Below the pieces are notes generated by a model that searched no databases, was not told the origin of the DNA, and worked only from the letters and a program-made list of their open reading frames with translations. 64,000 nucleotides of DNA from Naegleria gruberi (taxonomy: Eukaryota): assembly GCA_000004985.1 (NCBI GenBank), contig GG738851.1; one strand, given 5' to 3'. Position 1 is the first letter of the stretch; every line of letters begins with the position of its first letter. The position numbers were made by a program, and so were the translations under genes. This document shows, one piece after another, positions 13,545 to 63,545 of this stretch.

Positions 13545-13617
13545 GCCCGTCTAGCTCAGTCGGTAGAGCGCAAGGCTCTTAACCTTGTGGTCGTGGGTTC
13601 GACCCCCACGGTGGGCG
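13545..13617 (+). tRNA. tRNA-Lys (anticodon CTT)
   Basis: 73-nt cloverleaf: acceptor GCCCGTC/GGTGGGC (two G-U wobbles), D-arm GCTCAGTCGGTAGAGC, anticodon stem CAAGG/CCTTG with loop CTCTTAA, T-arm GTGGGTTCGACCCCCAC. Confidence 0.9.
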
Positions 13618-17654: not shown

Positions 17655-17728
17655 GCCTTCCTAGCTCAGTTGGCAGTAGCGCTGTCCTAGTAAGACAGAG
17701 GTCTTGGGTTCGATTCCCAAGGGAGGCA
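17655..17728 (+). tRNA. tRNA-Thr (anticodon AGT)
   Basis: 74-nt cloverleaf: acceptor GCCTTCC/GGGAGGC (one G-U), anticodon stem CTGTC/GACAG with loop CTAGTAA, T-arm TTGGGTTCGATTCCCAA. One D-stem mismatch. Confidence 0.75.
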
Positions 17729-27165: not shown

Positions 27166-30100
27166 TTACATCACAATGAAGGCACTCAAGAACACAACAA
27201 GCATCAATAATAGTTGTGATGAATGACTTTTCATACCAGTTGTGACATTCAATCTGACTGAACGAGCGGCTACTCCACTAACATGTCCATTAATATTCTT
27301 TGATGTTGAAGGAGTTGTAACAAATTCACAATTTGATCCAAATGCATTCTTCAAAGTACATTGACAAGTTTCAGGAGCAATACATTGACCTCTTGATGAA
27401 CAAACACTTGCATCAGTACTCTTAACTCCCTTACAATTGAATGATTCACAATTTGATCCATAGTATCCATTCTTGCAAGTACAATTATTTGGTTTGGAAC
27501 ATGTACCATTTCCAGAACAAACTGAATTATCTGAATATAATTGACCAAAACAATTGAACAATTGACAATTGTTTCCATAATATCCATTGTCACAGGAACA
27601 ATTATTTGGTTTGGAACAAGTACCGTGGGATGAACATACTGAGGATTGGTCACTTCCAATACCGTTACAATCAAACTTGCCACATGAAGCTCCATAATAT
27701 CCATTATCACATGAGCAATTATTTGGTTTTGGACAGGAACCATGTGAAGAACAAACAGATGAATTGGCACTGTTCACACCAAAACAATCAAACTTATCAC
27801 ATGCAGCTCCATAATATCCTTCCTTGCAAGTACAATTATTGAAATCCAAACATTGACCATTTCCTGAGCAGACACTTTGTGAATTCTTCAAAGTTCCAAA
27901 ACAATCGAATTCTTCACAATTAGCTCCATAATAACCAAGAGAGCATGTACAGTTATTATATGAAGAACAGATGCCATGACCAGAACAAACATTGGCTTGA
28001 GATTTGAGAATTGAATTACAAGTGAAATCTTCACACTTGCTTCCATTATAACCAGCAAAACATGAACATTGATCCAGTCCTAGGCAATAACCATGACCAG
28101 AACATCCCTTAGTTTCATCAGCAATACCAAAACATTCATTCACACAATAACTCTTGAAACTATTCAGTTTGCCTTTAACGCAATAAGGTGTTAACTTGTT
28201 AACAAATTTGGGTGTTGTGTAGAAAAATTCTCCTTTTCTATTTCTCATGACATAGGAGTAGTATAAATCTGGTACTGAATCCAATTTCAATTCTTCTAAT
28301 TTTCCTGTATACTTGTTTAGTTTGAGCAATGCTGAAAGGCCATAAAGAGTGATAATAATTTCACCCTCTGGTGTTTGAAGAATAGTTTGAACATCACGAA
28401 CTGATGTTTCATTGGCTGGTAAATTATATTCAGGATAACCTCTTGTGTAATTACCAACAATATTCGTAATAATTCCATTGGAAATTTTGAAAATTCTATT
28501 GTTGCCAATATCAGGAACCAACAAGACATCTTCTGACACAACACTGAAAGATTGGGCAGTGAATAGTGCTTGATTTGCAGGAATACCGCTTTCAATTCTA
28601 TTTCCAAGACCTGCAATGGTTGTAACAATTCCAGTTGACTTGGTGATTTTTCTAATTCTTGAAGAACCTTCCAAAATATAGAGATTTCCCTTCTCATCTG
28701 TGTCCATATAAACCACTTCTCCAAAATAGGCATTTTCAGCCTTTAAGCCATCTCCAAATCCACCTATTAATGTTGAAATGGTTGCATTCTCTTGATCAAC
28801 TGAAACATATTTGATATTGTTAATATTGGTTGGATCATCCACATTGGAGAAATACAAGTTTCTTCCCTTCATTAACATCAAGGTTGGGAAAATAGCAGCA
28901 TCAACAGCTCTCATTCCATCTCCAAAGAAACCATTAGTTCCATTACCAGCAAATAACACATTTTGACCTTGTGGAGTAATCTTTCTAACTTGGTAATTCC
29001 CAGTGGAAACATAAAAATCTCCAGTCAATGTATCAAATTCCAATCCCCCTACGTTATCAGTTGCTGATCCAGGAACAGAAGAAACTGTATTATTGTAAAG
29101 CTTTCTAATTCTTTGATTGTAGGGATCAGCAAAATAAATGGCATCCAATGAATTTTCTGAACGTACAACAAGAGCCAATGGATTGATATTTGCTTCAAGG
29201 GCAGGTATTTCCATATCAATGTTTTGCTCATAAATTTGTCCAGTACCAGCAATAATAGAAACTTGATTAGTGAGCTTGTCAATCTTCTTGATCAAATTCC
29301 AATCGGTCACATAGATGGCATCTCCAGAAGGTGATTCTGTCAAGAATATAGGTGAAACAACATCAATATTAGGTGGAACCTCGGATGATGGAATCCCATT
29401 TCCTGAAACTGTGGTGATTGTGCCATTAATTCCAAAAACCTTTCTAACTCTATTATTACCTAAATCGGCAATCCAAAGATCACCATTTGAATCAACAATA
29501 GCATGTGAAGGATTGTTCAATGTTGCTTCAGTTGCTAAACCACCATCTCCTGTAAATCCAACAGTGCCATTTCCTGCAATAATTACAACCATATTACTAT
29601 CTTTAGAAATCTTTCTAATAGTGTGATGTTTGTAATCAGCAATGTAAATTTCATCTTGATAGACAGATAAACCAACATATCTACCACCAAATATTGGATT
29701 CAGAGTATTGTTCAATAATGTATTAGTGCTTGTACTAATTTTTGCGTTTAACTTGGAAATTTCATTAAACTTTGCAATGGAACTTCTTCTAAATTCAGTG
29801 GATCCCTCAATTCCACCATAAAACACATCATTGCTCAATGACTTGTCAATTGCAATAGTTTTAATACGTTCGATAGCTCCAGGTAAGAAAACACTCTTCT
29901 CTAGACTATTGATCTTGTACATAAAGTTGGCATCAAGACTTCCAAAGTACATTTCATCGCTCTTTGAAAGAGTTGCAACTGTATCAACGACACTCAATTG
30001 TTTAGGATCCAGACCATCAATTGGAATTGGTACATTTTTTCCACTTCCAGCAATGGTTTGAATTGTGTTAGTTTGTGGACTGATTTTCTTAATGGAGTAA

Positions 30101-31062
30101 CTCAAACTGAATGTAATGGAATTGTCGCTGTAATCCATTACAATGGCAGTACCACCACTAACTTGAAAATCAGATACCAAAACTCCATCACTACCTGAAA
30201 TAGAACCAGACATGCCTGTAACCTCATTAGTTTCCAAATTATACTTGTAAAGAAAACTGTCAGATAACATGTAGAACTCATTATTGGAAACTTGCAAGAA
30301 ATCTTTAGCATAATAATAATCATTCTTTTTCATGTAAATGGTAGAATCAGAAATCAACCACAAACCAGACATTGTTCCAGTTCCATAAAGAACAATTCTT
30401 CCATCATTTGCCAAACTAAAAGCTGTCAACAGAAGTTGACATGAGAGAGCATTGCTACCATCATAACATGGATTTGTATAAAACAAACCACTGCTACTAC
30501 CAAACACTTGAGTTAAAGCAAGAGTTGTCATGTTAAATATGAATATTTTGTGTTGTTGTTGATAAGTTGTTGTTCTGATGGCAATATCTCCATTACCATT
30601 GATAGAACAACCACCTTCATTGCCATAGGATGAATCTGTTTTAGAAAAGAGTAGTGTTGTTGTGGCTGTTACATTGTCGAGTTTGTAGATGGCAATTTGT
30701 GGAAAAACAACACTGACAATGTACAGATTCTCAGAACTCTTATCATATAACAAACAGCTGACAGAGGTAGAGTGTGAATAAAACTTTTCAACTGTGCCAG
30801 TTTGTTTGGAAATTTTACGAATTGGTTGATAGTTATTGTATGTGAAAATATCACCAGCTGATGTAATGGTATAATGAGCATAACTAACAAGAGTGTTCAG
30901 AGCTGGGTAGCCAGAACCATCGTCATTACCACCTGCATAGACAGAAGTATTGTAAAAAGTTGGATAAACAACATTGTCTGGCAAGGTGGTTGCTTCTTGT
31001 TGCATGGATTGACCAGCAACAAGCAAGAACAAGAATAGACAAAACAATAACTTGTTTCTCAT
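27166..31062 (-). CDS. Large surface protein: signal peptide, NHL/beta-propeller repeats, about 8 tenascin-type EGF repeats, C-terminal transmembrane segment
   Basis: N-terminal MRNKLLFCLFLFLLVAGQS. Repeated CSGHGxC…NNCTCxxGYYGxxCExFxCxG units at the C-terminus. Terminal hydrophobic LLLMLVVFLSAFIVM. 1298 aa, single exon. Confidence 0.75.
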   Translation of the reverse strand: MRNKLLFCLFLFLLVAGQSMQQEATTLPDNVVYPTFYNTSVYAGGNDDGSGYPALNTLVSYAHYTITSAGDIFTYNNYQPIRKISKQTGTVEKFYSHSTSVSCLLYDKSSENLYIVSVVFPQIAIYKLDNVTATTTLLFSKTDSSYGNEGGCSINGNGDIAIRTTTYQQQHKIFIFNMTTLALTQVFGSSSGLFYTNPCYDGSNALSCQLLLTAFSLANDGRIVLYGTGTMSGLWLISDSTIYMKKNDYYYAKDFLQVSNNEFYMLSDSFLYKYNLETNEVTGMSGSISGSDGVLVSDFQVSGGTAIVMDYSDNSITFSLSYSIKKISPQTNTIQTIAGSGKNVPIPIDGLDPKQLSVVDTVATLSKSDEMYFGSLDANFMYKINSLEKSVFLPGAIERIKTIAIDKSLSNDVFYGGIEGSTEFRRSSIAKFNEISKLNAKISTSTNTLLNNTLNPIFGGRYVGLSVYQDEIYIADYKHHTIRKISKDSNMVVIIAGNGTVGFTGDGGLATEATLNNPSHAIVDSNGDLWIADLGNNRVRKVFGINGTITTVSGNGIPSSEVPPNIDVVSPIFLTESPSGDAIYVTDWNLIKKIDKLTNQVSIIAGTGQIYEQNIDMEIPALEANINPLALVVRSENSLDAIYFADPYNQRIRKLYNNTVSSVPGSATDNVGGLEFDTLTGDFYVSTGNYQVRKITPQGQNVLFAGNGTNGFFGDGMRAVDAAIFPTLMLMKGRNLYFSNVDDPTNINNIKYVSVDQENATISTLIGGFGDGLKAENAYFGEVVYMDTDEKGNLYILEGSSRIRKITKSTGIVTTIAGLGNRIESGIPANQALFTAQSFSVVSEDVLLVPDIGNNRIFKISNGIITNIVGNYTRGYPEYNLPANETSVRDVQTILQTPEGEIIITLYGLSALLKLNKYTGKLEELKLDSVPDLYYSYVMRNRKGEFFYTTPKFVNKLTPYCVKGKLNSFKSYCVNECFGIADETKGCSGHGYCLGLDQCSCFAGYNGSKCEDFTCNSILKSQANVCSGHGICSSYNNCTCSLGYYGANCEEFDCFGTLKNSQSVCSGNGQCLDFNNCTCKEGYYGAACDKFDCFGVNSANSSVCSSHGSCPKPNNCSCDNGYYGASCGKFDCNGIGSDQSSVCSSHGTCSKPNNCSCDNGYYGNNCQLFNCFGQLYSDNSVCSGNGTCSKPNNCTCKNGYYGSNCESFNCKGVKSTDASVCSSRGQCIAPETCQCTLKNAFGSNCEFVTTPSTSKNINGHVSGVAARSVRLNVTTGMKSHSSQLLLMLVVFLSAFIVM

Positions 31063-31591
31063 GGTTTTGTTTTTTTGAAATGTGGATTTCCGTCAAGGTT
31101 TGGCCACAGGTCGCTTAAAAGTCTTTTTGTACGATCTCACAATGAGAAACTTGTCGAATAGTTTACAATAAATAAAATTCACCAAAGTGCGTTTGTGCCC
31201 CTTCAATATTTACCATCTCATTGTTTTTGAAGGAATAACCTACTTGGCAACACGTGTTTCGGTATTTCGGAAGCAGAGAAGTACATTCAAGTTTACCAAG
31301 AGAACTATTCGAAACAATCTCTTTTTGATCATTGTTCAAAATTGCATTTGAGTTTTACCAAATCATACCACTAATATTCTGGTGAATAACGAAACATTGC
31401 ATAAAAGAAACAATACATTCGCATATCAAAATTAATTGTTATTTCTATCCTCTAGATTATTGTTTGATTGACATTTAAATGAAAAATTAATTGTTTGATG
31501 TTGGTGGGAAATTGAGTAAAATTATCTTTTTTCAAAAATATCCATAAAAAGTTCAACAGTGATAAAGAGTAAAAAGAAGTTATGTGAAGTA

Positions 31592-31712
31592 AAAGACTAC
31601 AGCACCACAGGTTCCCAAGTTGTCTCCAACCTCAGCACTGATGTGGCTCGACGATGCTTAACTTCTCAAATCGGACGGGATGAGGTGCATGAATCGTGAT
31701 ATGGCCGTAGCC
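31592..31712 (-). rRNA. 5S ribosomal RNA (copy 1)
   Basis: Reverse complement reads GGCTACGGCCATATCACGATTCATGCACCTCATCCCGTCCGATTTGAGAAGTTAAGCATCGTCGAGCC…GGTGCTGTAGTCTTTT, a 5S consensus with a Pol III T-run terminator. Confidence 0.9.
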
Positions 31713-32279
31713 ATTCAATACCTTAATTTGTGAAATATAAACCGATTTAAACCCCCTTTTCTTATTAATTCCTTTCAATAATCACCAGAATTAAAATGCA
31801 CTTGACTGATTTCACAACTATTCTTTTACAAGAACAAGTCACGTTTTTCATCATAATGAACTGCTTCCTTAATAAGTGCTGTCCCTTTTGTATTTTTTTA
31901 TTCATACAATTCTGAATGTGGTTCAAAACAATAATTTCATCCAATCATTATAGTTCCTATCATTGTAAACTGCCACGAAATATGAGAGTTTAATATTGAT
32001 TTCTTATTGCTATTGGTAGTTAGTGTTGTTTTTGCAATTTAAAGAATTGTAAAACTTGGAACTTGGAAGGCAAATTTCAAAATAACTGTAGTTTCAAGTT
32101 AAATATATAGTAACTCTCTTATTAGGTAATTCAATTGAATGTTTAATATTTTTTCATATCCAGTATGGCTAAGTTTAAACCCATTTATGAATAAGAAACA
32201 ATTATTTTTCATCCAAACTAACTTTATTACTATAGCTAACTGTTACAAATATTTGGAATGCATAGAGGAAAATGAAATC

Positions 32280-33673
32280 TTAATAATCAGAACCTCTACT
32301 CAATACTTCCTTGCAGGTTGGTCTCAAGAAGATGGTATGTTCAAATTGAGCAGTATGACATCCCTTAACATCTACAAATGGTGGATATTCATGAACAATT
32401 CCATTATTAACCAAATCACGAAGAGCAACAAGATATTTCTTTTGACCGGTTCTGTCCAAATATCTACGACAGAATGGAATGGATCCAAAATGATCATTGA
32501 TAACCTTGAGCAACTCTCTGGATTCCTTATTTCTCAACTCAGAGCCATCACCATGGTAGGTGAATTCTCTTCCATAATGAGAGGATACACCTTCTTCAAC
32601 AACATATCCCTTACCAGTAGTACCGAAAGTTTCAATTGCAAAGAATTCATTCTCTTCCATTTTGGTATTGTCTGGAGAAGCAACGATTGGAACTGATTTA
32701 GTTGAATGGACACGATATCTTTCGATTGAGTGTCCACACAAGTTTTCAATACTTTTAACTCTGTGAGTCTTTCCATTAATAGTCTATTAGTATTAGTTCA
32801 ACAAGCAATTAACATTGTAAATATAAATGAATAAGAAAAAATACATACAACTTCATAAGATTCCATTACTTCTTGAATGGCAGCTCCAACATCTCCCAAT
32901 CTAACATCAATGCCAGCTGTTCTGACACCCATGTTTGTTGCTTCCTTGACAGCATCCAATAATGGTTGATATTGATCATTCCAACACATGGTAAATGCAG
33001 AATCAATAATGGTTCCATTTACATGAGTTCCCAAATCAAACTTGATAACATCATCCTTTCCAATAACGGTTTCATCTCCACCATTTGGTGAATAATGAGC
33101 AGCAACATGATTGATGGAACAACCCAATGGAAAAGCAAGTCCACTCTTCTTCTTGTCAGCTTCCAACAATTCTCTAGCCTTTGCTTCATACATTTCAGCT
33201 GCATCAATAACCTTCATTCCAGGTTTAACAACTGAATCCTTGAACCATTTTCTGGCAGTTCTGTGAACCTCAGCTGCATGTCTTGCTTCCTTGAGACGTT
33301 CTTGCAACTTTTCATCTCTTTCTTCAGCACCAGGCTTCAACTCAGAAGGATGAAATCTCTTGGTCTTGTAATCGTATTGTCCCAATTCACAGATTTCTCC
33401 CTCTGGAAACTTTCCGTCCTTATACAAATACTTGATTGGTACAGTTGGTTCAGGTTGAGTTTGTTCAGTTGGCCATACTTTTTGTTTGTTTGGATGATTT
33501 TTAGTTGGTTGAACAGACTTTGAGCTTTCCTTTTCATTCTTCTTGCTCATTTCCATCAAAAACTTCATCTCATCATTGGAATTAATTTTTACATTCTTCT
33601 TCTTGGAAGTGGTTGATCCGCCTCCTCTGGTGGAGAGAGTTTGTGCAGATAGAGTACTCTTCTTGATGGACAT
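32280..33673 (-). CDS. METAP2: Methionine aminopeptidase 2 (MetAP2), 2 exons (33673-32849, 32783-32280)
   Basis: Lys-rich N-terminus and pita-bread fold motifs. GTATGT donor after …ESYEV and AATAG acceptor (65-nt intron) give …[26 protein letters not shown]…. Confidence 0.9.
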
Positions 33674-33991
33674 TTTAATAATAATAATAGTAGTGGTTGG
33701 TGGTTGGTTTTGTAGTAGTTAAACTAGAACAATAATATTAACACAATAGTGCGTGAAAGGAATAAAGTAAAGAGGCTTTTTTTCTTTCAAAGTTTTTGGT
33801 GTTTGGACGTAATCAAAAGAAGATACTGTAATGATAGGTATTGCAAGAAAATTGTGATGTTACTAAAATTTAAGTATTGTGAAATTACAAGGACAAATGT
33901 TTACAGAAGAATCTTGTAATTAAATTTGAATGATTGTGAGAAGTGTTCTAAAGAATCCACAAGGAAGCAAGGAGTTTTGGGGTGAAATAAA

Positions 33992-34112
33992 AAAGACTAC
34001 AGCACCACAGGTTCCCAAGTTGTCTCCAACCTCAGTACTGATGTGGCTCGACGATGCTTAACTTCTCAAATCGGACGGGATGAGGTGCATGAATCGTGAT
34101 ATGGCCGTAGCC
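33992..34112 (-). rRNA. 5S ribosomal RNA (copy 2)
   Basis: Near-identical to copy 1 (one substitution), with the same conserved upstream block and T-run. Confidence 0.9.
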
Positions 34113-34642
34113 AATCAATACCTTATTTTGTGAAATATAAAACGATTTGACCCTCCTTTTCAATAGGATTTTAATGCTTCTAATCTCAATTCAAAGTCAA
34201 TCTGTCAACTCTATATCATCACTGGATCTGATTCATTACATTAGAGAAGAAAGTTTAGAGCTTCATTCTCCACTTCGTAGTGATTGGAACCACTTGCAAT
34301 TCTCTGAAGAATTACTGATAGTTCAATTTCGTAAATATCGAAAGATTTTTTTGGATGGTTCTCTTCATTATACGTGAATATCTACTCAAAGTTATGGTTG
34401 TAATATTGACCAATTGTTTCTAATTCAGATTCCTTTTCTGTAAGATTACTGTAGAAACTGTTGAAAAATGTTACATGAAAATCCGAAGAAAATCAACATT
34501 GTTTGCTATTCCTCCTCTTAATTGGAAGGTCTTGGAACGAATCCCTTTTCACTTGGAAAATAATTCCTTGCATTGACATGTTCAAAAACATTTAAAAGGT
34601 CAACCATGCCAAATTCTAAAGTTTAAAGATTGTTCAAGATCC

Positions 34643-36100
34643 ATGAATTTCTTTAAATTGACATGGATTACACGCAACCTTTTCATTGAAGAAAAAAACA
34701 TGTACTTCTCCAGATGTATCACCAACAAGTTGTTAGTTTCAGCTACAACTTTTTCTGCAACATGCATGGCCATTCTCATGGCTTTGATCATGTTATCATC
34801 AGTAACAACAGCCAATTCGCAAACCTATTCATTCAATAAGGATATGGACTACTTTTCATCGAATTATGTTGAAGCTTATCAAAAGTTTAAACAAGTTTGT
34901 GAAGCAACAGGTGGTTACAAGTACTCAGAGTATGAGCTTCCTTCCATTCTTGGTCTTCAAGGTGAAAAATTGTACATGTCTGCATGCTTCCATGAAGAAC
35001 GTGCCAACATGTTGAAGAATAGTGCTGAATCCAATGTTTTCCTTACCTTCTCAGGTGTACATGGACAAGAGGGATTTGCAGGAAGTCCAATTCAGATTGC
35101 CATGATAAAGAATGACACCAAGTATCAATTCAATCTCCCTGAAAATACCTATCCTATTCACATTCACATGTTAAATCCATATGGAGCCAGTTATGCAACA
35201 AAGGAAAATGAAAACAATGTCGACATGTTGAAGAATTTGAATGAACATTACATTGATGTACCTGGTTGGGAAATTTCAAAGAATGTTTTATTGGAACAAT
35301 TCATTGATAATATGAATATTTCATATATTCACTTGGAATCTGTTCAAGCACAAGCAGTCAACTACTTTAACACCCTATTGGCAAAAGTTGGTCTTCCAGC
35401 ATTCACACAATCATCAGTCCTTGGACAAATTCACAGAAAAATTGGAATTGCCTACGCAGGAACTACAGAAGAATGGACAGCCAAGCAAGTTAAAATCATT
35501 TTGAATCAACTCTTGAAAGGCTACTCCTCCGAATATACCAAGAGTAGAAAGGTTTTATATATTGACTTGCACACTGCTGTTGGTGAGTATGGAAATGTGT
35601 ATGCCATGTTCGATCCTGAATGGATTCCATTCGCTAAACAATACCTCCTCAAGAATGAATACATTCACGACAATTTATTTCCATTTCCGAATGGTAAATA
35701 TTTTGGACATTTCATTAAGGAGTTGGCCCTAATGAGTGGAAGCAAGGCCAATTTAACTATTGTTCCAACTGCTTGGGAAATTGGTACATTCCCACAAGAT
35801 GCCTATCAAAATTACTTTTTATTTCAATTGAATTGTAGATTCTATCAAAATATAACTGATAGAAATCCAAACTTTTGTCCATTTGTGAATTCCAAAGTTG
35901 GTGAATATTTCTATCCTCAAGATGACAATTGGAAGTCTTGGGCCTTTGGAAATTTGACAATTGCAATGAGAAGTTCAATGAATGGAATGAATCAATGGAT
36001 TTTGGAAGAAAAGTGGAGAGTTGCAAGTTTGGCAAATTGTAATATTATGCAATCATTCATGGTTATTGTAATGATTATTTGTTTGATTGTTTTATTGTAA
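34643..36100 (+). CDS. Succinylglutamate desuccinylase/aspartoacylase (AstE/AspA, M14-like) family zinc hydrolase, membrane-anchored/secreted
   Basis: HGxE motif (FSGVHGQEGF) and downstream DLH (LYIDLHTAVGEYG). N-terminal hydrophobic segment and C-terminal hydrophobic tail. Confidence 0.55.
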   Translation: MNFFKLTWITRNLFIEEKNMYFSRCITNKLLVSATTFSATCMAILMALIMLSSVTTANSQTYSFNKDMDYFSSNYVEAYQKFKQVCEATGGYKYSEYELPSILGLQGEKLYMSACFHEERANMLKNSAESNVFLTFSGVHGQEGFAGSPIQIAMIKNDTKYQFNLPENTYPIHIHMLNPYGASYATKENENNVDMLKNLNEHYIDVPGWEISKNVLLEQFIDNMNISYIHLESVQAQAVNYFNTLLAKVGLPAFTQSSVLGQIHRKIGIAYAGTTEEWTAKQVKIILNQLLKGYSSEYTKSRKVLYIDLHTAVGEYGNVYAMFDPEWIPFAKQYLLKNEYIHDNLFPFPNGKYFGHFIKELALMSGSKANLTIVPTAWEIGTFPQDAYQNYFLFQLNCRFYQNITDRNPNFCPFVNSKVGEYFYPQDDNWKSWAFGNLTIAMRSSMNGMNQWILEEKWRVASLANCNIMQSFMVIVMIICLIVLL

Positions 36101-36736
36101 ACATTTTAATAAATAATTTGTTGAATTGGATTGATAATTGATATTATATTAATGGAACAATTGTGAAAGATTTGAGTGGGTCTGCAATGTTTTTAAATTA
36201 TTTGGTGGAGGAAAGAATTGGTGGAAAAATAGAGTAACAGAGGAAGTGTAAAGATACATCGATGTTTTAAGGTCAGAAGACATGATACTTTTACAATAGT
36301 TGGTAAATATTGGACATAATCTATTCTGACAAGTTCTATTTAAATAACTCTTCAAGTATTGAAATTACAGTTGATTCCTGGGTGTTACAAAATTTAGCTT
36401 GAATTAACGAGTCTGAAACTATAGGGTTCCATATCGCTATCCTGAACTGAGGGATAATTGAATACATAAAATTCTTCAATCTGAATTGCGATTAGGATCC
36501 TGTCAATGGTTGTTGTTCCAACTCCTCTTTCAATAATGATCATAATTCTGCTCGTTTAAATATGAGCACAAATCAACTAGAATCATGCGCGCAGAATTAA
36601 AAGTATAAATTTTAGGTTTAAATTTTATGGATTTGAAACACAACTCTAATTCCAAACACAAAAAAACAAATTCACAACTAGTTTTTGAATTTAATTCTAT
36701 CTGCACTAACAGTTTACAATCGTAATACAGTACAAT

Positions 36737-37848
36737 ATGAAATACGTCAATTTGGGTGAAAGTGGTTTAAAAGTTTCTCAACTTTGCTTGGGTTGCATGA
36801 GTTTTGGATCTTCCAAGTGGATTCCTTGGGTTTTGGAAGAAGAGGAATCATTGAGAATATTGAAGAAGGCATGGGATTTGGGCATCAACTTTTTCGACAC
36901 TGCCAATATTTACAGCAATGGAGAAAGTGAAAGAATTTTAGGCAAGTTCATTAAGGAATTCAACATTTCAAGAGAGGAAATTGTGGTTGCTACCAAAGTT
37001 TGTGGACCATTGGATCATTCTGGTGAACAAAAACTCATTATGAATAGTAATCAAGGTAAACCAAATACTATGGGTCTTTCCAGAAAGCACATTATGCATG
37101 CAGTTGAGGATTCATTGCAAAGATTGGGTCTTGATTGTAAGTTTTACTTTCTTCTTGTGATTTTAAATGAAAAATTTAAATAGACATTGATTTGTACATT
37201 ATCCATCGTTGGGATGAACAAACACCAATTGAAGAAACTATGGAAGCTCTCCATGATTTGGTTAAATCTGGAAAGGTCAGATACATTGGTGCCTCTACTA
37301 TGTTTGCTTGGCAATTTTCCAAAGCTCAACATTATGCTGAGAAGAAGGGATTGACTAAATTCATTTCCATGCAAAATCTGTACAATCTCATCTATAGAGA
37401 AGAGGAGAGAGAAATGAATCCATTGTGTGTTGATCAAGGTGTTTCACTCACACCTTGGGGACCTCTTTCTAATGGAATGTTAGCTCGTGCTCATGAATTT
37501 GTCAATGCTGAGGAGAAGGCAATTGAAACTACTGAAAATAATTCCAAGAGACAAAATACTGATATTGTTCAAACCATATTTAAGGGCAATTTGACTGAAG
37601 GTGATAAGGAAACTTTGAGAAAAGTTTCTGAAATTGCCAAGAAGAGAAACGTTTCTCCAGCTCAAATTGCACTTGCTTGGTTACTTTCCAAACCTGGAGT
37701 TGTAAGTCCAGTAATTGGTGCAACAAAGGCCATTAATGTTGAGCTCAATGTTCAAGCACTGGAAATTGAATTGACTGAAGAGGAGAAGAAGATTTTAGAA
37801 GGAGCCTACTCTGCAAAGGAAATTCAAGGAATGTTCAAATTAAATTAA
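36737..37848 (+). CDS. Aldo-keto reductase (Kv-beta/YajO-like), 2 exons (36737-37136, 37184-37848)
   Basis: AKR N-terminus MKYVNLGESGLKVSQLCLGCMSFG. GTAAGT donor and AATAG acceptor (47-nt intron) join …LQRLGLD|YIDLYIIHRWD…. Confidence 0.85.
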
Positions 37849-38236
37849 TGTGACACCAATTCTTGCTTAAAAGAATTTTTTAAGACATGTTTCTTAGTGT
37901 CATCAATAAATTTTCAACAAAGTTATTGGATTTAACACATTTAGATTATTAATTTGTGGCTATTCTTTTTAGTTTAATGGACGGGAAGCCTGTCAGGAAT
38001 ATAACGACAATCCCGCTACAGTCTTTGACTGTATGAACAGTGAAGGCAACGAAGACAGAATCTTGTTGGTTCAGGTTTTGTTTGAAGAAATTGTTAAGGT
38101 TGATAAAACCTCATATTTATTAAACTTTTGCCATGTTGAATTGCAGGATACAAATTTTGGTTTCTCATATTCTGATCAATTCGAAATTGAAACTTCATAT
38201 ATTTACAATTTACTGAATTATTTACAAGTTGCAATT

Positions 38237-38530
38237 TTACATCTTTTTCGATTTGGTAATCTTCTTAGTTGTGGTGTTTGATTGTTTAGCTCTCTTTTCA
38301 ATTGAATTTTTCGAAGATCTTTTAACTGAAATTTGTTTACCATTTAAATTTGCATGATGATAATCAATATTATTACGATGTCTTGTTCCACTTATAATAT
38401 TAGATGTATCAATATCAAATAATGGTAATCTTTTAGATAAATCAATTGGTTTAGATCTTGTCCATTCTGTTTTTGTTGGAATTCTATCTTCGGAAGATGA
38501 AGTATTTGATGAAGTATTTCTAGCTGGCAT
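38237..38530 (-). CDS. Small orphan Ser/Asn-rich basic protein, family member A (MPARNTSSNTSS…)
   Basis: 97-aa ORF. Paralogs at 63546-63761 and 63964-64000 share the GTR(H/R)RN(N/L)IDY motif and the promoter. Confidence 0.45.
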   Translation of the reverse strand: MPARNTSSNTSSSEDRIPTKTEWTRSKPIDLSKRLPLFDIDTSNIISGTRHRNNIDYHHANLNGKQISVKRSSKNSIEKRAKQSNTTTKKITKSKKM

Positions 38531-38833
38531 TTTGCTCTTAGTTTTTGTTATTTAGTTATTTTGTTTTGTTGTGGAAATTTCATCATCCGAGCTAACAGTT
38601 ATCTATTTATTTCCATGATGATTTCCACTAATTTTGTGATTCCGATTTTTAGTGGATCTTCCACTCATCACAAGAATTTTTCTATTAATATTTTGATGAA
38701 AGGAAATTTAATGAAAATCAACAAACAAAAGAAAATAACAAGCAAAACTTCTAAATCAATCACAGAATTCTTTAGAAATGAGAAACAAACAATTCAAAAT
38801 GTGGTAATCTCCATAAAACTCAAAATTTTGTAA
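38480..38833. repeat. Inverted segmental duplication, copy 1 (promoter + 5' ends of a divergent gene pair); partner at 63523-64000
   Basis: Reverse complement of 38480-38720 aligns to 63790-64000, and of 38721-38833 to 63523-63640, at about 85-90% identity by eye. About 150 bp present at 63641-63789 is absent here. Confidence 0.7.
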
Positions 38834-39531
38834 ACCTAAGCAATCATTGTAAATAAAACCAAAATGTAAATATTCAGTAAAGTACACAGTTGAATTGTTT
38901 TGACCTATTTTCTTTATTTTCTTCTGAACTGCTGATTCAATTCGCATCCTGCATAAATTTCAAAGTAATTATATCAATTCTGTGTTTGCCCTCCTTCTCA
39001 ATTTTTTCCTGTGAGGGATCATCTGGTATGATTTCTAGCTCTGTTAAATAATAGAACAACTCCTTTTTCTCAAAAACAACAAACCTTTTCGGATGTTTCA
39101 CTTTGTGTCCATTAATTAATCCAACATACTCATAAAATGTAATAAAGAAATTGGTGATTAGTTCTGTAAGAAAAAAAGGGTGTGTCAGATCTGTGGTGGC
39201 AGAACCGTCAGAAATCGGCCCACAGACTTGCTCACAGCCCCGATCATTTGAAGTAGTGGTATTTCAAGTATGCCTGTTGGCTCTCACCTATGCTACACCT
39301 TCAACGAACACGGTTTGGTTGCAGTGTAATCCCTCAATTGGTTCTGCCAATGACAATGAATTGTCTGCAAACTCTAGATGGTTTGAAAATGTCTGATATG
39401 GTTGTGGTTGAGAGATAATTGATATTTAAAACTCCATCTCAGGATTGACATCTTCACATCCATTTTCTCATTTCTAAAATTCCTTTGCCCACTTGTTTAA
39501 GTCAAGTAAAGACAAAATACCAAAAAGATAA

Positions 39532-39652
39532 AAAGACTACAGCACCACAGGTTCCCAAGTTGTCTCCAACCTCAGTACTGATGTGGCTCGACGATGCTTA
39601 ACTTCTCAAATCGGACGGGATGAGGTGCATTCATCGTGATATGGCCGTAGCC
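39532..39652 (-). rRNA. 5S ribosomal RNA (copy 3)
   Basis: Same as copies 1 and 2 except for a local TTC to GAA change (…CACGATGAATGCACC…). Conserved upstream block and T-run terminator. Confidence 0.85.
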
Positions 39653-39813
39653 ATTCACTTTCTTAATTTTCGAAATACAAACCGGTTTGATCCTCAATCA
39701 AATATTTGTAATCAAATTCTTTGCACTTCAGTTGCAACATCTTAATAATTCTTTGTTTTTATAAAAATACAAGTATTGTTCATTAAATAATTGTTTAGGG
39801 AATAGTACAATAA

Positions 39814-41292
39814 TTAATTTCTGGAATAGTCAAAATCGTCAAAGTTTTGATTTTCTTCCTTATCAATAACTTCGGCAAATGAATCAACAGCACGTTCAGA
39901 TGTGAATTCTTCATCAAAGTATTTGATATCATCTCCATCTCTGAGTTGTGGTCTGAATGGAGGTTCCAATTGTCGTTGATATAATTGTTCCCAATCAATA
40001 TTTGAGAAGAATGGATGTGATTTGATTTCTTGAGCATCAGTTGGACCACCTCCCAAACGTTTGAATTCTTCTCTTTCCAAGAGACCTCTCAGTAAGGATT
40101 GTGCATCAGGTGGAATGAATTGTGGGAATTTGAGTGGAGCCTTCAAAATTAATTCGTACATTTCATTGATGTTTTCAGAGTAGAATGGTGGCAAACCAAC
40201 CATCATTTCGTATAATAAGATACCTAAACTCCACCAATCGACTGCCTTAGCGTGACCTTGTCCCTTGAGGATTTCTGGAGCCAAATATTCAGGAGTACTA
40301 AACATTTATAATTAGAAAAAATTTAAAAGATTGATTACATACCCACAGAATGTATAAGTTGGAGTAGCATTAGAAATGGATGTCTTGGCCAAACCAAAAT
40401 CTGTCAAGACAACATAACCATCTGAATCCAAAACAACATTTTCTGGTTTCAAATCTCTGTAAATAATATCATTCTTGTGCAAGTGTTCAATGGCCAAAAC
40501 AATTTGAGCAGCATAGAACTTGGCACGTTCAACGTCAAATTTGGTTTCTTCTTTCAAGTGGAAGAACAATTCACCACCTGGCAAGAATTGAAGAACTAGA
40601 TAGAGTTTTTCATCTGTTTGGAATGCATAGTACAATTTGACAATGAATGGATGGTTAATTTCTTGGAGAATTTGCTTTTCAGCCTTTCTATATATGGTGT
40701 AAAAGAGGTGTAAGGTCAATTAGAAAATTGTAAATATTTGGAAATATTAAAATACGTACGTGTGAGAAACCATGTTTTCTTTAACAATCATATCCTTACG
40801 CAAAACCTTCATGGCGAAAATTTCTGTAGTATTCTTTCTTCTAACTTTCATAACTTTTCCGAAACTGCCTCTACCAACGACGGCAATCAATTCAAAATCA
40901 TCCAAAGTGACCTTCTTTGCTTCAGCACTATTTCCACTTGAAACCAACAATGTACTACTCGAAGTATCATTTTTCATTTCCATCTTGGTTTGTTCTAAAC
41001 CCTTTTTATCATTCTTTGGCTTATAGTCAATAGCTCTTTGTAATTCATCCATCCACTTTTTATAATCAAGTTCAGATTCACAAATCAATTCATAGACACG
41101 TGAAAGATTTGGACCACTCAATTTCAATCCGAGTGACTTGTTTCCATCCTTTTCAACTTTGGCATTTGTCAGGACAATGACACCTGTTGGACGCTTATCT
41201 GTATTCTTTTTGTAATAGTACAAGTGTTTACCTCTCAATTCAAACCATCTACGACGGTGAGCAAGAGTATTAAATCCACCTCTCTTTCTCAT
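39814..41292 (-). CDS. PH-domain AGC kinase (PKB/Akt-like), 3 exons (41292-40760, 40687-40343, 40297-39814)
   Basis: N-terminal PH domain (…[17 protein letters not shown]…). GTACGT donor and ATATAG acceptor (72 nt) join …MVSHT|[20 protein letters not shown] donor and TTTAG acceptor (45 nt) join …TFCG|[12 protein letters not shown]-terminal tail FDEEFT. Confidence 0.85.
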
Positions 41293-43553: not shown

Positions 43554-45812
43554 TTATTTATTTGAGGTTTGTGACACAGGAGTGTGTTGTTGAGGGAAAA
43601 AATCACCGAGAAGTTTCAGAATATCCTCAGTAGTCAAATTGTCAAGGTCTGTATTTCCAAAATTCATAGTTCCATTCTCAATGTTGAATATATCATCTCC
43701 ATAGGATTGAGAAAGTTTTCTGATTACACCTTGAGCATTAAAATCTGCAGGAAGTGAAACTTTTCGTGAATTTAAAACATCAATGAGTGAATTTTTCTTT
43801 TCTTCACGATTAGGGGAGTTAGGATTGCATTGTTCATTACTTTGGCTCATACTACTATTGTATTGTGCGATAATATTGAGTAATTGCATCTTTTCATAAT
43901 CGGTGAGAACGTCCAAAGAAGCTGCATTTCTTCTAGAGTATAGTCTGCCATTATCTTGATTTGTTGAAGCATTCATATTTTGAATGTTATCGTGTTGAAC
44001 TGAACTATTAATCGAGTTCACGTTCATCAATGGATCCATTGAAATGTTTGTCATATTTGGTGGAAGGGTATTTCCAGGCCCAATAGTTAAAGGTAAACCA
44101 TTTAAGTTATTCATTTGTTGAAGGTTGGTATTTACAGCAGATGGAAAGGTAATATTGTGGAAGTTGTATATCTTTGGATTTGGTTCTGACTTGTTAAAGT
44201 GATTGGAATAGTCATGAAATTCTGTTTGAAAACCATGATATCTAGGACTTGTTGGATATGGTTGGTTATTATTGGCAAAATTTGGTTGGATCATTTGAGG
44301 TGTTGGTGATGGCACAAAATTTTGAATTTGGCCAGCTCTATTCATACTTAAGGTGTCAGAGGTAGCAAAATTGGTGGGTTGTCCATAGGCTTGGAATGGA
44401 AAATTGGAAGTTTGATTTGATTGATAAATATCTTCTTGTTGCTGCTGTTGCTGTTGTTGATTGTTTTTAGCAGGATATTTCAATACTATTTTTTGACTGT
44501 CTACATCTGCATATTGATTAGTTGTTGGCATTTGTAACATGTTTGAAAAGGATTGTTGAGGGCTATTAGATATTTGCAACATTCCAGTATAAGGATTACT
44601 AAAAGTGGTACTTCTGGCATCTAGGTTTGCATAGTTTTGATCCTGAAAAGAGTTAGTATTCGTTGGAGATTCTGTATTCATAATCACAGTTCCATCTTGC
44701 AATAATATTGATGAAACATTTGGAGATGGATTAGTCTTGAGCTCAACAACTTCTCTCTGCAATTTGTCAATTTCCTGTTGAGTTTGTGCCACAGACTTTT
44801 GATCATTCTTTGATTCAGAACGTTGTTGCATAATTTGTAAAACTTCAATTCTTCTCTGAATAGAATTTAACCTTCTGAATGGCCATCTTGGAATTTGAAA
44901 TTCTCTGCACAACCTCTTCAATTGGGTCAAGCTTACTCCCAGTAATTGACTGGCATCTCTAATTGGCATTTCAAAACAAGAAGCAATATCATTGAAAGCA
45001 ATATTCTTTCTGTGTTTTCTAACTGAGAGTCCATGAGATGATGACCTGGATTTGCCACTCTTCTTTTTCTTCTTTTTTGAGTTGGCTTCTGGTTCTTCAT
45101 CTTCGTCCATGTCTTCATCATCAAAGGATGACGAAGTTGCTGTAGTTGTTGGAGGAGATTGCAGTTGTTGGGAAGAGGTGTTAACAGTACTGTTGGCCGA
45201 AAATGTCTGTTCAATTTGTGGAGGGACAAAGTTCATACTATTTTGTGAAGAGACACTATGGCTTGAAGATGCCGCTTGTTGTTGCTGTGGATAGAAAGAT
45301 TGTGGATTTTGATTATCAAGAGTAGAGGGAGGCGATGTGGATCCACATGTATTGGAAGCTACTATCAGTTGGTTAGCAGCTGCAGTTTGGTTCAAAAAGT
45401 TTTGGTGATTTGTAGATTGCATCAATGGCATAACTACTTGGTTGGCATCTAATAAATCGGCAGGTGAATTTAGTTGATTCATAAAAGAATGTCCAAATGT
45501 TGAATTATTATTACTATAAAGCGAGGAAGTATACGAATTTTGAATAGTATTTTGAGTGAGGCTATGGAGAGAGGATGTTGTCGATGGCTCAAGTGGTTCA
45601 GACTTTATGTGAGTGGAGGAGGCTACGGAAGAGGTTGATAATGCTCCCATATCAAGACTAGAATAGAGATGATTCATTAGATTGTTTGTGGAGGTAGCAA
45701 CAGTAGCAGCAGTTGGTAAAGAACCATTCATCAGTGCCGTGAAATTATTTGATGATGCCTGTTGCTGCATTGAAATGTTATAATTGTTATTGTAATAATA
45801 ATTATTATCCAT
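43554..45812 (-). CDS. RWP-RK domain transcription factor with poly-Gln/Asn low-complexity regions
   Basis: RWP-RK core …IAFNDIASCFEMPIRDASQLLGVSLTQLKRLCREFQIPRWPFRRL… PolyQ run NNQQQQQQQQED and extensive N/S/T/Q-rich sequence. Confidence 0.75.
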   Translation of the reverse strand: MDNNYYYNNNYNISMQQQASSNNFTALMNGSLPTAATVATSTNNLMNHLYSSLDMGALSTSSVASSTHIKSEPLEPSTTSSLHSLTQNTIQNSYTSSLYSNNNSTFGHSFMNQLNSPADLLDANQVVMPLMQSTNHQNFLNQTAAANQLIVASNTCGSTSPPSTLDNQNPQSFYPQQQQAASSSHSVSSQNSMNFVPPQIEQTFSANSTVNTSSQQLQSPPTTTATSSSFDDEDMDEDEEPEANSKKKKKKSGKSRSSSHGLSVRKHRKNIAFNDIASCFEMPIRDASQLLGVSLTQLKRLCREFQIPRWPFRRLNSIQRRIEVLQIMQQRSESKNDQKSVAQTQQEIDKLQREVVELKTNPSPNVSSILLQDGTVIMNTESPTNTNSFQDQNYANLDARSTTFSNPYTGMLQISNSPQQSFSNMLQMPTTNQYADVDSQKIVLKYPAKNNQQQQQQQQEDIYQSNQTSNFPFQAYGQPTNFATSDTLSMNRAGQIQNFVPSPTPQMIQPNFANNNQPYPTSPRYHGFQTEFHDYSNHFNKSEPNPKIYNFHNITFPSAVNTNLQQMNNLNGLPLTIGPGNTLPPNMTNISMDPLMNVNSINSSVQHDNIQNMNASTNQDNGRLYSRRNAASLDVLTDYEKMQLLNIIAQYNSSMSQSNEQCNPNSPNREEKKNSLIDVLNSRKVSLPADFNAQGVIRKLSQSYGDDIFNIENGTMNFGNTDLDNLTTEDILKLLGDFFPQQHTPVSQTSNK

Positions 45813-62222: not shown

Positions 62223-62985
62223 ACTATTTGTTTCTATTAAATTGAGAAGGAAAATTGATGATTAATAATAAGTAGAGAAAAGGTGATCGGATCCGATATA
62301 TAGAATGCTATATTAATGATGATACAAACCTGAATTAATACTCTCCTTCACTGAAATGGATGATATCGATAAATTCATCATCCTATTAGAAAGAGTCGAT
62401 GAAGCCGAGGTTGCTCTACTCGGTGTTGAAGAATTCATATTCAATCTCTTTAGATACTGATTCTCTTACTCCCTTAAAAATCTCGGAACAATAAGGTAAA
62501 AATCAAAGAAACTCTGCGTTCGTTCGCCTCTTGATAAACGACTAGTTTTTTTTGAGTTTGTTCAATAGAGAGAACATAGTCTAAGGATGCATTGTTGAGA
62601 GAAGTTTTGAAGCGTAATTTTACTTTAAAAAAATTACGATCGGGGAGAGATGAAATAAATTCTTTCAAGACTTGTCCTTCTTAAGAAAAGTCAATGTGTT
62701 GCGAAGAATTTTACATACGGTTGGGTTTCTGGTGGTATACATCATGATGTGTATTAAGCATTCGAAATATTTTCAAATATTATGCTCTTTGTTGAGATTG
62801 TTGGATGTTCCTAAATCAAAAAGGTGTAAAGGAGAAGTAACTTGTTTATAATTTGGGACATGCGAATACTTGCAATATTGTTTCTCATAAATGATTTGGA
62901 AACGAAAAAGGATCAAACTGGTTTATAGTGAAAGAGGAAAAAGAGGTTTAAATCGTTTTATATTTCGCAAATTAAGAATTTGCAT

Positions 62986-63107
62986 GGCTACGGCCATATC
63001 ACGATTCATGCACCTCATCCCGTCCGATTTGAGCAGAAAAATGATGCCCAATCCAACAAGGTCATCTTTGAATTGACTTGTTGGAGATTCTTCGTTGTTC
63101 TATTATT
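62986..63107 (+). pseudogene. 5S rRNA variant or pseudogene (intact promoter and 5' 48 nt, diverged 3' half)
   Basis: GGCTACGGCCATATCACGATTCATGCACCTCATCCCGTCCGATTTGAG matches the other copies, then diverges (CAGAAAAATGATGCCC…). Upstream block AAATCGTTTTATATTTCGCAAATTAAG is conserved. Confidence 0.55.
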
Positions 63108-63545
63108 TAACAGAGCGAGAAATCATACCAGATGAATCCTCACAGGAAAAAATTGAGAAGGAGGGCAACAACCACTTTGATTATTGACCAAATTCTGGCT
63201 ACTCATCCTCTTGAGTGAAAGGAGGAGAGTTTCCAGATTCACATTTCAGTCTGCATGATCTCTGAAATGTCCTTCAAGGTAAGTATAAAGAAAGAAAAGA
63301 GTGTAAATTCAAACAAATCTTAAAAACTTTTCAAGATGTATGATTTTTTGAAACCTGAATTATGGTCATTGTTTGTTTTTTTATGATTTGAATTCTTTGA
63401 AATAGTTGAACATGAAGCAAACACAGAATTGATATAATTACTTTGAAATTTATGTAGGATAATTATTTTACATTATTGAATATTTACATTTTGGTTTTAT
63501 TTACAATGATTGCCTAGGTTTTCAAAATTTTGAGTTTTATGGAGA

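What the first reader, a model, noticed from the sequence alone, without database searches (positions are those of the whole stretch)
31592..39700. Three full-length 5S rRNA genes dispersed singly between protein-coding genes, each with the same roughly 45-bp upstream element
The copies at 31592-31712, 33992-34112 and 39532-39652 (all minus strand) are not in a tandem array and are not linked to other rRNA genes. Each sits in a different intergenic spacer. All share a conserved 5' flank (…AAATCGGTTTATATTTCACAAATTAAGGTATTGAAT|GGCTACGG…) containing a TATA-like TTTATATTT at about -25 to -30. All end in a T4-6 Pol III terminator. Dispersed 5S genes with an upstream TATA-dependent element are known in some fungi and protists. 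In others 5S is in tandem arrays or on the rDNA unit. Three copies in 8 kb implies a high genomic copy number of solitary 5S loci.
Basis: seen in the sequence. Interest (0 to 1): 0.55.

Follow-up and report, generated by a model that had tools for sequence, protein, structure and literature searches.

The report
Dispersed 5S rRNA genes of Naegleria
These are three genuine, separately placed 5S ribosomal RNA genes of the amoeba Naegleria gruberi, each with its own short upstream promoter-like block; they are real but were already catalogued in a 2012 paper, so the finding is correct and ordinary.

Summary
Rfam RF00001 finds three full-length 5S rRNA genes on the minus strand, at 31594-31712, 33994-34112 and 39534-39652 (96-105 bits; the family's gathering score is 38). 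They share a unit of about 165-171 nt: the gene, 43-50 nt of upstream sequence, and a T4-T6 run. DNA beyond that unit is unrelated.

The window is Naegleria gruberi NEG-M scaffold_7, positions 512001-576000. An annotated N. gruberi protein matches an exon here exactly. Feng et al. 2012 (PMC3369914) list 5S genes at scaffold_7 543593, 545993 and 551533, which are these three loci. That paper reports 279 putative copies, not linked to the rDNA, with an internal control region and a TATA box.

My analysis of their coordinates shows dispersal with loose clusters, not tandem arrays.

New details found here:
- The upstream block is 5S-specific; the two tRNA genes lack it.
- T(A/G)TAT sits at -27..-23 in every copy.
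- A truncated 5S relic at 62943-63036 carries a fourth copy of the block.
- The block travels with gene variants as one unit.
- The block is largely different in another heterolobosean whose 5S gene is 118/119 identical.

Verdict: already known, low interest. The open question is whether the block compensates for the reported lack of TFIIIA.

The parts
31594..31712 (-). 5S rRNA gene copy A. It is a minority variant with U21/C22, which breaks one helix II pair.
   Evidence: RF00001 95.7 bits, model 1-120. Equals scaffold_7 543593-543709 in PMC3369914 Table S1.
31713..31761 (-). Upstream promoter-like block of copy A, with TATAT at -27..-23.
33994..34112 (-). 5S rRNA gene copy B, with the same U21/C22 variant as A.
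   Evidence: RF00001 100.3 bits. Equals scaffold_7 545993-546109 in Table S1.
34113..34161 (-). Upstream promoter-like block of copy B.
   Evidence: 43/50 identical to A over -50..-1; core matched with 2 mismatches.
39534..39652 (-). 5S rRNA gene copy C, the canonical G21/A22 form. By my count it belongs to the modal similarity class of the published table.
   Evidence: RF00001 105.4 bits with no non-canonical pairs flagged. Equals scaffold_7 551533-551649 in Table S1.
39653..39701 (-). Upstream promoter-like block of copy C, a diverged version with TGTAT at -27..-23.
   Evidence: 34/50 identical to A and to B over -50..-1, against 13-15/50 over -110..-61.
62943..63036 (+). It has the upstream block plus the first 48-51 nt of the gene, of the A/B type.
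   Evidence: Core element matched with 3 mismatches. Sequence read. RF00001 only 22 bits. BLAST 87% over unit positions 16-109.
31590..31593 (-). T-run terminator of copy A (T4, counting the last gene base). The equivalent runs are T6 after copy B (33989-33993) and T5 after copy C (39530-39533).
   Evidence: 3' end strings

Best explanation
These are three ordinary, probably functional nuclear 5S rRNA genes of Naegleria gruberi strain NEG-M (scaffold_7). They belong to a family of about 280 genomic hits scattered singly or in loose clusters among protein-coding genes, while the 18S-5.8S-28S genes lie elsewhere. Each copy is a self-contained RNA polymerase III unit of about 165-171 bp with three parts. 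The first is an upstream block of about 43-50 bp whose T(A/G)TAT at -27..-23 most likely positions TBP/TFIIIB and fixes the start site. The second is the 119-nt gene, with an internal box A (AGTTAAGC at +50) and a box-C-like sequence at +80. The third is a T4-T6 terminator. The unit, meaning promoter block plus gene, is what gets copied to new sites by DNA-level duplication or ectopic recombination. After copying, the gene body stays nearly identical (97% or more), the upstream block drifts under weaker constraint (68-86%), and the surrounding DNA is unrelated. Shown here: the gene identity, the unit boundaries, the motif positions, the dispersal and the organism. Inferred: that the block is a promoter, that TBP binds it, and how copies spread.
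For: 5S identity and completeness come. Organism and exact locus: exon 1 of the MetAP2 gene is 275/275 identical to N. gruberi NEG-M XP_002681251.1. The window coordinates equal the published scaffold_7 coordinates minus 511999 for all three genes, and 512000 = 8 x 64000. Published context (PMC3369914): 279 hits, not located with rDNA, ICR and TATA box present. Dispersal: 279 hits on 117 scaffolds, a median same-scaffold gap of 33.9 kb, only 1 of 162 gaps under 1 kb, and 200 of 279 hits with no neighbour within 10 kb. T(A/G)TAT lies at -27..-23 in all copies, with T-runs at the 3' end. Box A is exact at +50, and box C at +80 has 2 of 18 mismatches. The block is 5S-specific: it is absent upstream of tRNA-Lys and tRNA-Thr and elsewhere in the window, apart from the truncated relic. 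Unit-wise propagation: A, B and relic D share the U21/C22 gene variant and have more similar blocks (39-43/50) than any of them has with C (34-35/50). The genes are not positionally conserved: there is no 5S next to the MetAP2 orthologues of N. lovaniensis or of five metagenomic relatives.
Against: No expression or transcription-start data are available here. Selection on the block therefore cannot be cleanly separated from recent common descent or gene-conversion tracts. The truncated, presumably dead relic keeps the block about as well as the intact genes do. That is what recent common descent alone would predict. Copy C has TGTAT rather than TATAT, a weaker TATA. In another heterolobosean (L011), whose 5S is 118/119 identical, the upstream sequence is only loosely similar, so the block as such is not deeply conserved. 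Copies A and B break one helix II base pair and may be less fit or inactive variants.
Confidence: 0.75

Rival explanations
1. The upstream similarity has no function. It is simply the part of the duplicated or gene-converted DNA segment that has not yet decayed, and transcription depends only on the internal control region.
For: The upstream blocks group with the gene variants: A/B/D against C. The truncated relic D retains the block at 39-41/50 identity to A and B. The block is largely different in the heterolobosean contig L011 despite a near-identical gene. Another eukaryote with dispersed 5S genes shows no conserved upstream block at all, with mean identity 0.35 over -50..-1.
Against: The similarity has sharp edges at about -43/-50 and at the terminator in all copies, including the distant pair A-C. 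Just beyond those edges the flanks are fully randomised (18-32% identity) while the block stays at 68% or more. A neutral block of the same age as those flanks should be randomised too. The invariant positions include T.TAT at -27..-23, the canonical TBP/TFIIIB site. Relic D has 0/48 differences from A in the gene part but 9/50 in the block, so block differences are older than the truncation and yet are bounded.
Confidence: 0.15
2. The upstream block is the principal promoter, external and gene-specific in the manner of a type 3 promoter. It allows 5S transcription without TFIIIA, which was reported as not found in N. gruberi.
For: PMC3369914 Table 1 lists TFIIIA as absent in N. gruberi while TFIIIB and TFIIIC subunits are present. 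The block is much longer than a TATA box, is specific to 5S genes, and has invariant positions from -38 to -9. TFIIIA-independent 5S expression has a precedent in Yarrowia tRNA-5S fusions (PMC2566860).
Against: Box A and a box-C-like sequence are present at the canonical internal positions (PMC3369914). TFIIIA is a poorly conserved C2H2 protein that BLAST easily misses, so its reported absence is weak evidence. The block ends at about -45, where a PSE-like element would be expected further upstream (about -55 to -65 in known type 3 promoters, from my own knowledge). No U6 or other type 3 gene was available in the window for comparison. The sequence is not conserved in L011.
Confidence: 0.1

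Closest known systems
The published N. gruberi 5S rRNA gene set (Feng et al. 2012, PLoS One 7:e36878, PMC3369914)
   Same: These are the same loci: R33878, R33875 and R33585 at scaffold_7 543593, 545993 and 551533. The paper gives the same conclusions on copy number (279), separation from the rDNA, the presence of an ICR and the presence of a TATA box.
   Different: The paper scores the arrangement as 'tandem', but its own coordinates show dispersal. As far as its text and legends show, it does not describe the ~45-bp 5S-specific conserved block, the unit boundaries, the gene/promoter co-variation or the truncated relics.
Dispersed 5S genes of Yarrowia lipolytica (Acker et al. 2008, PMC2566860)
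   Same: About 100 copies are scattered through the genome outside the rDNA, accompanied by truncated relics. That paper reports 108 genes plus 8 relics.
   Different: Nearly half the Yarrowia copies are fused 3' of tRNA genes and are transcribed from the tRNA promoter. Here none of the copies adjoins a tRNA gene, and each has its own upstream block.
TATA-assisted Pol III genes of Schizosaccharomyces pombe and plants, and dispersed 5S genes of Neurospora crassa (partly from my own knowledge; TATA at -30/-24 for S. pombe and plant tRNA genes is stated in PMC7279448)
   Same: An internal promoter is combined with a TATA-like element about 25-30 bp upstream that recruits TBP/TFIIIB. The genes are solitary and dispersed.
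   Different: In S. pombe the TATA element is general to Pol III genes. Here the two tRNA genes in the window do not share the block, which extends well beyond a TATA box and is 5S-specific. Functional dependence is untested in Naegleria.
Tandem 5S rDNA arrays of animals and plants, and rDNA-linked 5S of Saccharomyces and Dictyostelium discoideum
   Same: The same RNA, the same type 1 internal elements and the same T-run terminator.
   Different: There is no array periodicity and no linkage to 18S/28S. The spacers are unrelated sequences containing protein-coding genes.

Membership tests
Eukaryotic 5S rRNA (Rfam RF00001) | Covariance-model score at or above the gathering threshold over the full model | tested here: met
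   95.7, 100.3 and 105.4 bits against a threshold of 38, model positions 1-120.
Eukaryotic 5S rRNA (Rfam RF00001) | Intact secondary structure (helices I-V) | tested here: met
   Copy C has no non-canonical pairs flagged. Copies A and B have one broken pair (U21 opposite C) in helix II (alignments).
Eukaryotic 5S rRNA (Rfam RF00001) | Transcribed and incorporated into the 60S subunit | not testable with these tools
   No RNA data are available.
Pol III type 1 (internal, TFIIIA-dependent) promoter | Box A near +50 | tested here: met
   AGTTAAGC at +50 fits N(G/C)(C/T)(C/T)AANC in all three copies.
Pol III type 1 (internal, TFIIIA-dependent) promoter | Box C near +80 | tested here: inconclusive
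   The best site, at +80 (GAGGTTGGAGACAACTTG), has 2 of 18 mismatches to the consensus used in PMC3369914. That paper scores the ICR as present.
Pol III type 1 (internal, TFIIIA-dependent) promoter | A TFIIIA orthologue in the genome | not tested
   PMC3369914 Table 1 reports none found in N. gruberi by BLAST/PSI-BLAST. I did not re-examine this.
Dispersed (solitary) 5S genes with upstream TATA | Copies not in head-to-tail arrays and separated by unrelated DNA and genes | tested here: met
   Spacings are 2400 and 5540 bp, with protein-coding genes in between and unrelated flanks. Genome-wide, the median gap is 33.9 kb and 1 of 162 gaps is under 1 kb.
Dispersed (solitary) 5S genes with upstream TATA | Not linked to 18S/5.8S/28S genes | tested here: met
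   No other rRNA hit in the 64 kb. PMC3369914 lists 'located with rDNA units: N'.
Dispersed (solitary) 5S genes with upstream TATA | TATA-like element at about -30/-24 | tested here: met
   T(A/G)TAT at -27..-23 in copies A, B and C, and TATAT at the same place in relic D.
Dispersed (solitary) 5S genes with upstream TATA | Transcription depends on the TATA element | not testable with these tools
   This needs mutagenesis or in vitro transcription.
Pol III type 3 (external PSE + TATA) promoter | A conserved proximal sequence element upstream of the TATA box, shared with U6-type genes | tested here: inconclusive
   Conservation extends only to about -43/-50. No U6 gene in the window is available for comparison. 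The U1 candidate's upstream region shows no copy of the block.
5S-derived SINE or retroposed 5S copies | Target-site duplications, a 3' tail, and absence of the upstream promoter | tested here: not met
   No direct repeat longer than 6 nt flanks any unit. The units end at the T-run, and every copy carries the untranscribed upstream block.

The most novel reading that the evidence does not exclude
In Naegleria gruberi the 5S genes carry a lineage-specific, 5S-dedicated external promoter module of about 45 bp (invariant core T.AAA.CG.TTT.TATTTC..AAA.TAAG). This module, rather than a TFIIIA-ICR complex, would nucleate TFIIIB. That would explain both the reported failure to find TFIIIA in this genome and the fact that the module is always co-duplicated with the gene. 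If so, it would be a TFIIIA-independent route to 5S expression distinct from the Yarrowia tRNA-fusion route.
Probability: 0.12. Interest if true: 0.5.

Novelty: already known. Interest (0 to 1): 0.15.

Why it matters
It matters little as a discovery. The loci, the copy number and the TATA box of N. gruberi 5S genes were published in 2012, and dispersed TATA-associated 5S genes are a known arrangement in several fungi and protists. Two modest points are worth keeping. Second, the copied unit includes a 5S-specific upstream block of about 45 bp. Together with the reported absence of TFIIIA, this makes Naegleria a reasonable system for asking how 5S transcription is initiated in Discoba, and how solitary Pol III genes spread while keeping their promoters.

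Tried and rejected
- Positional conservation. I fetched the MetAP2 orthologue loci of N. lovaniensis (L001), a Logan/ENA Naegleria-like organism (L002, L003) and three metagenome contigs (L004-L006). None has a 5S gene, so the positions are not syntenic. This gave no extra copies of the block.
- Retrieving more N. gruberi DNA. The look-up of encoding contigs has no record for the window's DUF2817 ORF or for the N. gruberi proteins P0001 and P0121. The other ~275 copies could therefore not be aligned.
- Segmental duplication. A 93%-identical MetAP2 paralogue lies on the same scaffold, and a 5S pair at scaffold_7 187831/193327 has a similar gap (5496 against 5540). The accession-number distance between the paralogues suggests about 265 kb, which does not fit that pair. 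This is untested and I dropped it.
- Retroposition or a SINE origin. Rejected: no target-site duplications and no tail, and the untranscribed promoter is carried along.
- A general Pol III upstream element. Rejected for this window: neither tRNA gene has the block.
- Taxonomic identification of the second metagenomic 5S family (VFQM/VFQO contigs). The FGGY kinase on L014 is at most 41% identical to anything named, with Acrasis at 38%. The organism stays unidentified and is used only as a contrast.
- Literature. The N. gruberi genome paper (PMID 20211133) is not held in the library. A broad search for Naegleria Pol III or 5S literature found nothing beyond PMC3369914.
Full report
**1. The observation**

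An Rfam gathering-threshold scan of the whole window returns five hits. Three are full-length 5S rRNA genes on the minus strand:

| Copy | Coordinates | Bits (gathering score 38) |
|---|---|---|
| A | 31594-31712 | 95.7 |
| B | 33994-34112 | 100.3 |
| C | 39534-39652 | 105.4 |

The other two hits are tRNA-Lys(CTT) at 13545-13617 and tRNA-Thr(AGT) at 17655-17728, which ARAGORN confirms. No other rRNA is present in the window.

A three-way alignment of 800 nt around each copy shows one block of similarity with sharp edges. The repeat finder reports it as a 171-nt unit at 31591-31761, 33991-34161 and 39531-39701, with spacings of 2400 and 5540. I measured identity in register from the 5S start:

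| Region | Pairwise identity |
|---|---|
| Gene | 116-118/119 |
| -50..-1 | 34-43/50 |
| -110..-61 | 9-16/50 |
| First 60 nt downstream | 13-21/60 |

- BLAST places the upstream edge of similarity at about -43 and the downstream edge just after the T-run.
- T(A/G)TAT lies at -27..-23 in every copy.
- The genes end in T4 (A), T6 (B) and T5 (C).
- The 28-nt core of the block never occurs in shuffled sequence.

That criterion is not met.

**2. The organism and the exact locus**

The ORFs between and around the copies are eukaryotic and interrupted by introns:
- MetAP2, 32280-33673 (-)
- a DUF2817 protein, 34643-36100 (+)
- an aldo-keto reductase, 36737-37848 (+)
- a PH-domain AGC kinase, 39814-41292 (-)
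- a 1298-aa EGF/NHL teneurin-like protein, 27166-31062 (-)
- an RWP-RK protein, 43554-45812 (-)

Exon 1 of MetAP2 finds Naegleria proteins first. Cluster member P0121 is XP_002681251.1 of N. gruberi strain NEG-M, on a 693,645-bp contig, and it is 275/275 identical up to the splice site.

Feng et al. 2012 (PMC3369914) searched the JGI N. gruberi assembly by BLAST and listed 279 putative 5S genes in their Table S1. Three of these lie at scaffold_7 543593-543709, 545993-546109 and 551533-551649. Subtracting 511999 from each gives 31594, 33994 and 39534 exactly. So the window is scaffold_7:512001-576000 (512000 = 8 x 64000), and the three genes are already catalogued as R33878, R33875 and R33585.

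Table 1 of that paper records the following for N. gruberi:
- 279 copies
- not located with rDNA units
- ICR present
- TATA box present
- TFIIIB and TFIIIC present
- TFIIIA not found

**3. Genome-wide arrangement**

The paper's Table 1 marks the arrangement as 'tandem'. I transcribed its 279 coordinates and computed spacings:
- The hits lie on 117 scaffolds.
- Of 162 same-scaffold gaps, the median is 33.9 kb, the minimum is 462 bp, and only one is under 1 kb.
- 37 gaps fall between 1 and 6 kb.
- 200 of 279 hits have no other hit within 10 kb.

That is dispersal with loose local clusters, not arrays. The present three-in-8-kb group is one of the loose clusters.

In the table's 'similarity' column, copy C (0.75) falls in the modal class, roughly 160 rows by my count. 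Copies A (0.725) and B (0.733) fall in minority classes.

**4. Anatomy of the unit and what it implies**

Five points follow from the evidence.

(a) The block is specific to 5S genes in this window. Neither tRNA gene has it upstream, and searches with the core or the whole unit find nothing else, with one exception.

(b) The exception is a fourth copy at 62943-63036 (+). There the block is followed by only the first 48-51 nt of 5S, and then by unrelated sequence. This is a 3'-truncated relic. The similarity again starts at -43, so the promoter-side edge of the mobile unit is reproducible.

(c) Gene variants and block variants co-vary.
- A, B and relic D share GATTCATG. Its U21 breaks a helix II pair, which cmscan flags.
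- C has GATGAATG.
- The A/B/D blocks are 39-43/50 identical to each other but only 34-35/50 identical to C.
- The promoter block and the gene are therefore inherited together by DNA-level copying.

(d) No target-site duplications or tails are present, and every copy carries the untranscribed block. This excludes retroposition of 5S RNA.

(e) Box A (AGTTAAGC) sits at +50. The best box C match is at +80, with 2 of 18 mismatches to the consensus used by Feng et al..

Conservation falls in three tiers: the gene at 97% or more, the block at 68-86%, and the flanks at background. Combined with the canonical TATA position, this favours a constrained upstream promoter element acting with the internal control region. 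This hybrid arrangement is known in S. pombe and plants, where tRNA genes have a TATA at -30/-24 (PMC7279448). From my own knowledge it also applies to Neurospora and Arabidopsis 5S genes.

The alternative is that the block is merely unerased duplicated DNA. The relic's good preservation and the variant linkage support that alternative. It fits poorly with completely randomised DNA directly abutting the block in the most diverged pair.

**5. Comparison across species**

No 5S gene flanks the MetAP2 orthologues in N. lovaniensis or in five environmental Naegleria-like contigs. This includes a contig whose MetAP2 is 83% identical and which covers both expected positions. The insertion sites are therefore evolutionarily young or labile.

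One scan of metagenome contigs with an internal 5S pattern returned 14 loci.

- **L011** carries a 5S gene 118/119 identical to copy C. Its neighbouring hydrolase is most similar to Willaertia (52%) and N. lovaniensis (58%) proteins, so it is a heterolobosean distinct from N. gruberi. Its upstream region shares only loose features with the N. gruberi block: AAAT..GTTT, a TATA-like TTATAG near -24, and AATTAA near -15. With a single sequence this cannot be pushed further.
- **Nine contigs (VFQM/VFQO)** carry a different 5S family from an unidentified eukaryote. These are also solitary genes in unrelated contexts. Their upstream regions have no conserved block: mean identity over -50..-1 is 0.35, against 0.75 in N. 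gruberi.

The long block is therefore a feature of the N. gruberi family rather than of dispersed 5S genes in general.

**6. Comparison with what is known, and novelty**

The closest known thing is the very same gene set as published in 2012. By arrangement, the family resembles the dispersed 5S genes of Yarrowia lipolytica (108 copies plus 8 relics; PMC2566860). It lacks Yarrowia's tRNA fusions. It also resembles the TATA-assisted Pol III genes of fission yeast and plants.

Nothing here departs from a known kind, so I rate it 'already known'. The residual novel reading is that the 5S-specific block substitutes for a missing TFIIIA. It rests on a negative BLAST result for a notoriously divergent protein, and on four copies of the block. 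I give it about 0.12.

**7. Verdict**

Interest: 0.15.

Noticed in passing
window 62943-63036 (+): A 3'-truncated 5S relic: the conserved upstream block plus the first ~48-51 nt of the gene (the A/B-type variant), then unrelated sequence. It is not in the published 279-gene table. It scores only 22 bits with RF00001.
   Followed up: yes
window 62905-62926 (+): A second, partial copy of the first half of the 5S upstream block (AAAAAGGATCAAACTGGTTTAT) lies about 35 nt upstream of the relic's own block. It is 17/22 identical to copy C's block. Only two sites in the whole window reach that score.
   Followed up: partly
window 63116-63286 (-): A likely U1 snRNA gene: RF00003 40.7 bits (below the gathering score of 69.5) with E 1.8e-8, a perfect 5' AUACUUACCU and an Sm-like AAUUUUU. 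Its 3' end lies about 80 nt from the 5S relic.
   Followed up: partly
window 31594-31712 and 33994-34112 versus 39534-39652: Copies A and B (and the relic) carry U21/C22 instead of G21/A22, which breaks a helix II base pair. Copy C and the metagenomic heterolobosean copy have the canonical pair. Whether the variant genes are expressed is unknown.
   Followed up: partly
window 13545-13617 (+) and 17655-17728 (+): tRNA-Lys(CTT) and tRNA-Thr(AGT) genes. Their upstream regions have AT-rich stretches but no copy of the 5S block.
   Followed up: yes
window 27457-27807 (-): Three 117-nt tandem units (62-77% identical) inside the 1298-aa ORF. They encode EGF-like repeats of a teneurin-like EGF/NHL protein.
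   Followed up: partly
window 32280-33673 (-), MetAP2: A second MetAP2 gene, 93% identical in protein sequence (XP_002681149.1), lies on the same 693,645-bp N. gruberi scaffold. This is a recent paralogue pair. I could not check whether the paralogous segment also carries 5S genes.
   Followed up: no
PMC3369914 Table 1 versus Table S1: The paper scores N. gruberi 5S genes as 'tandem'. Its own coordinates give a median same-scaffold gap of 33.9 kb and only 1 of 162 gaps under 1 kb, which is dispersed.
   Followed up: yes
L011 (Ga0247722_10036048), 5S on the minus strand around 538-657: An environmental heterolobosean contig with a 5S gene 118/119 identical to copy C, but an upstream region only loosely similar to the N. 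gruberi block.
   Followed up: partly
L007, L008, L010, L012-L016, L019 (VFQM/VFQO contigs): A second family of solitary 5S genes (GGGTACGGTCATCTTG...) from an unidentified eukaryote. Each sits in a different genomic context with no conserved upstream block. The variation within the family includes what look like compensatory changes in the helix at positions 16-21 and 58-63.
   Followed up: partly
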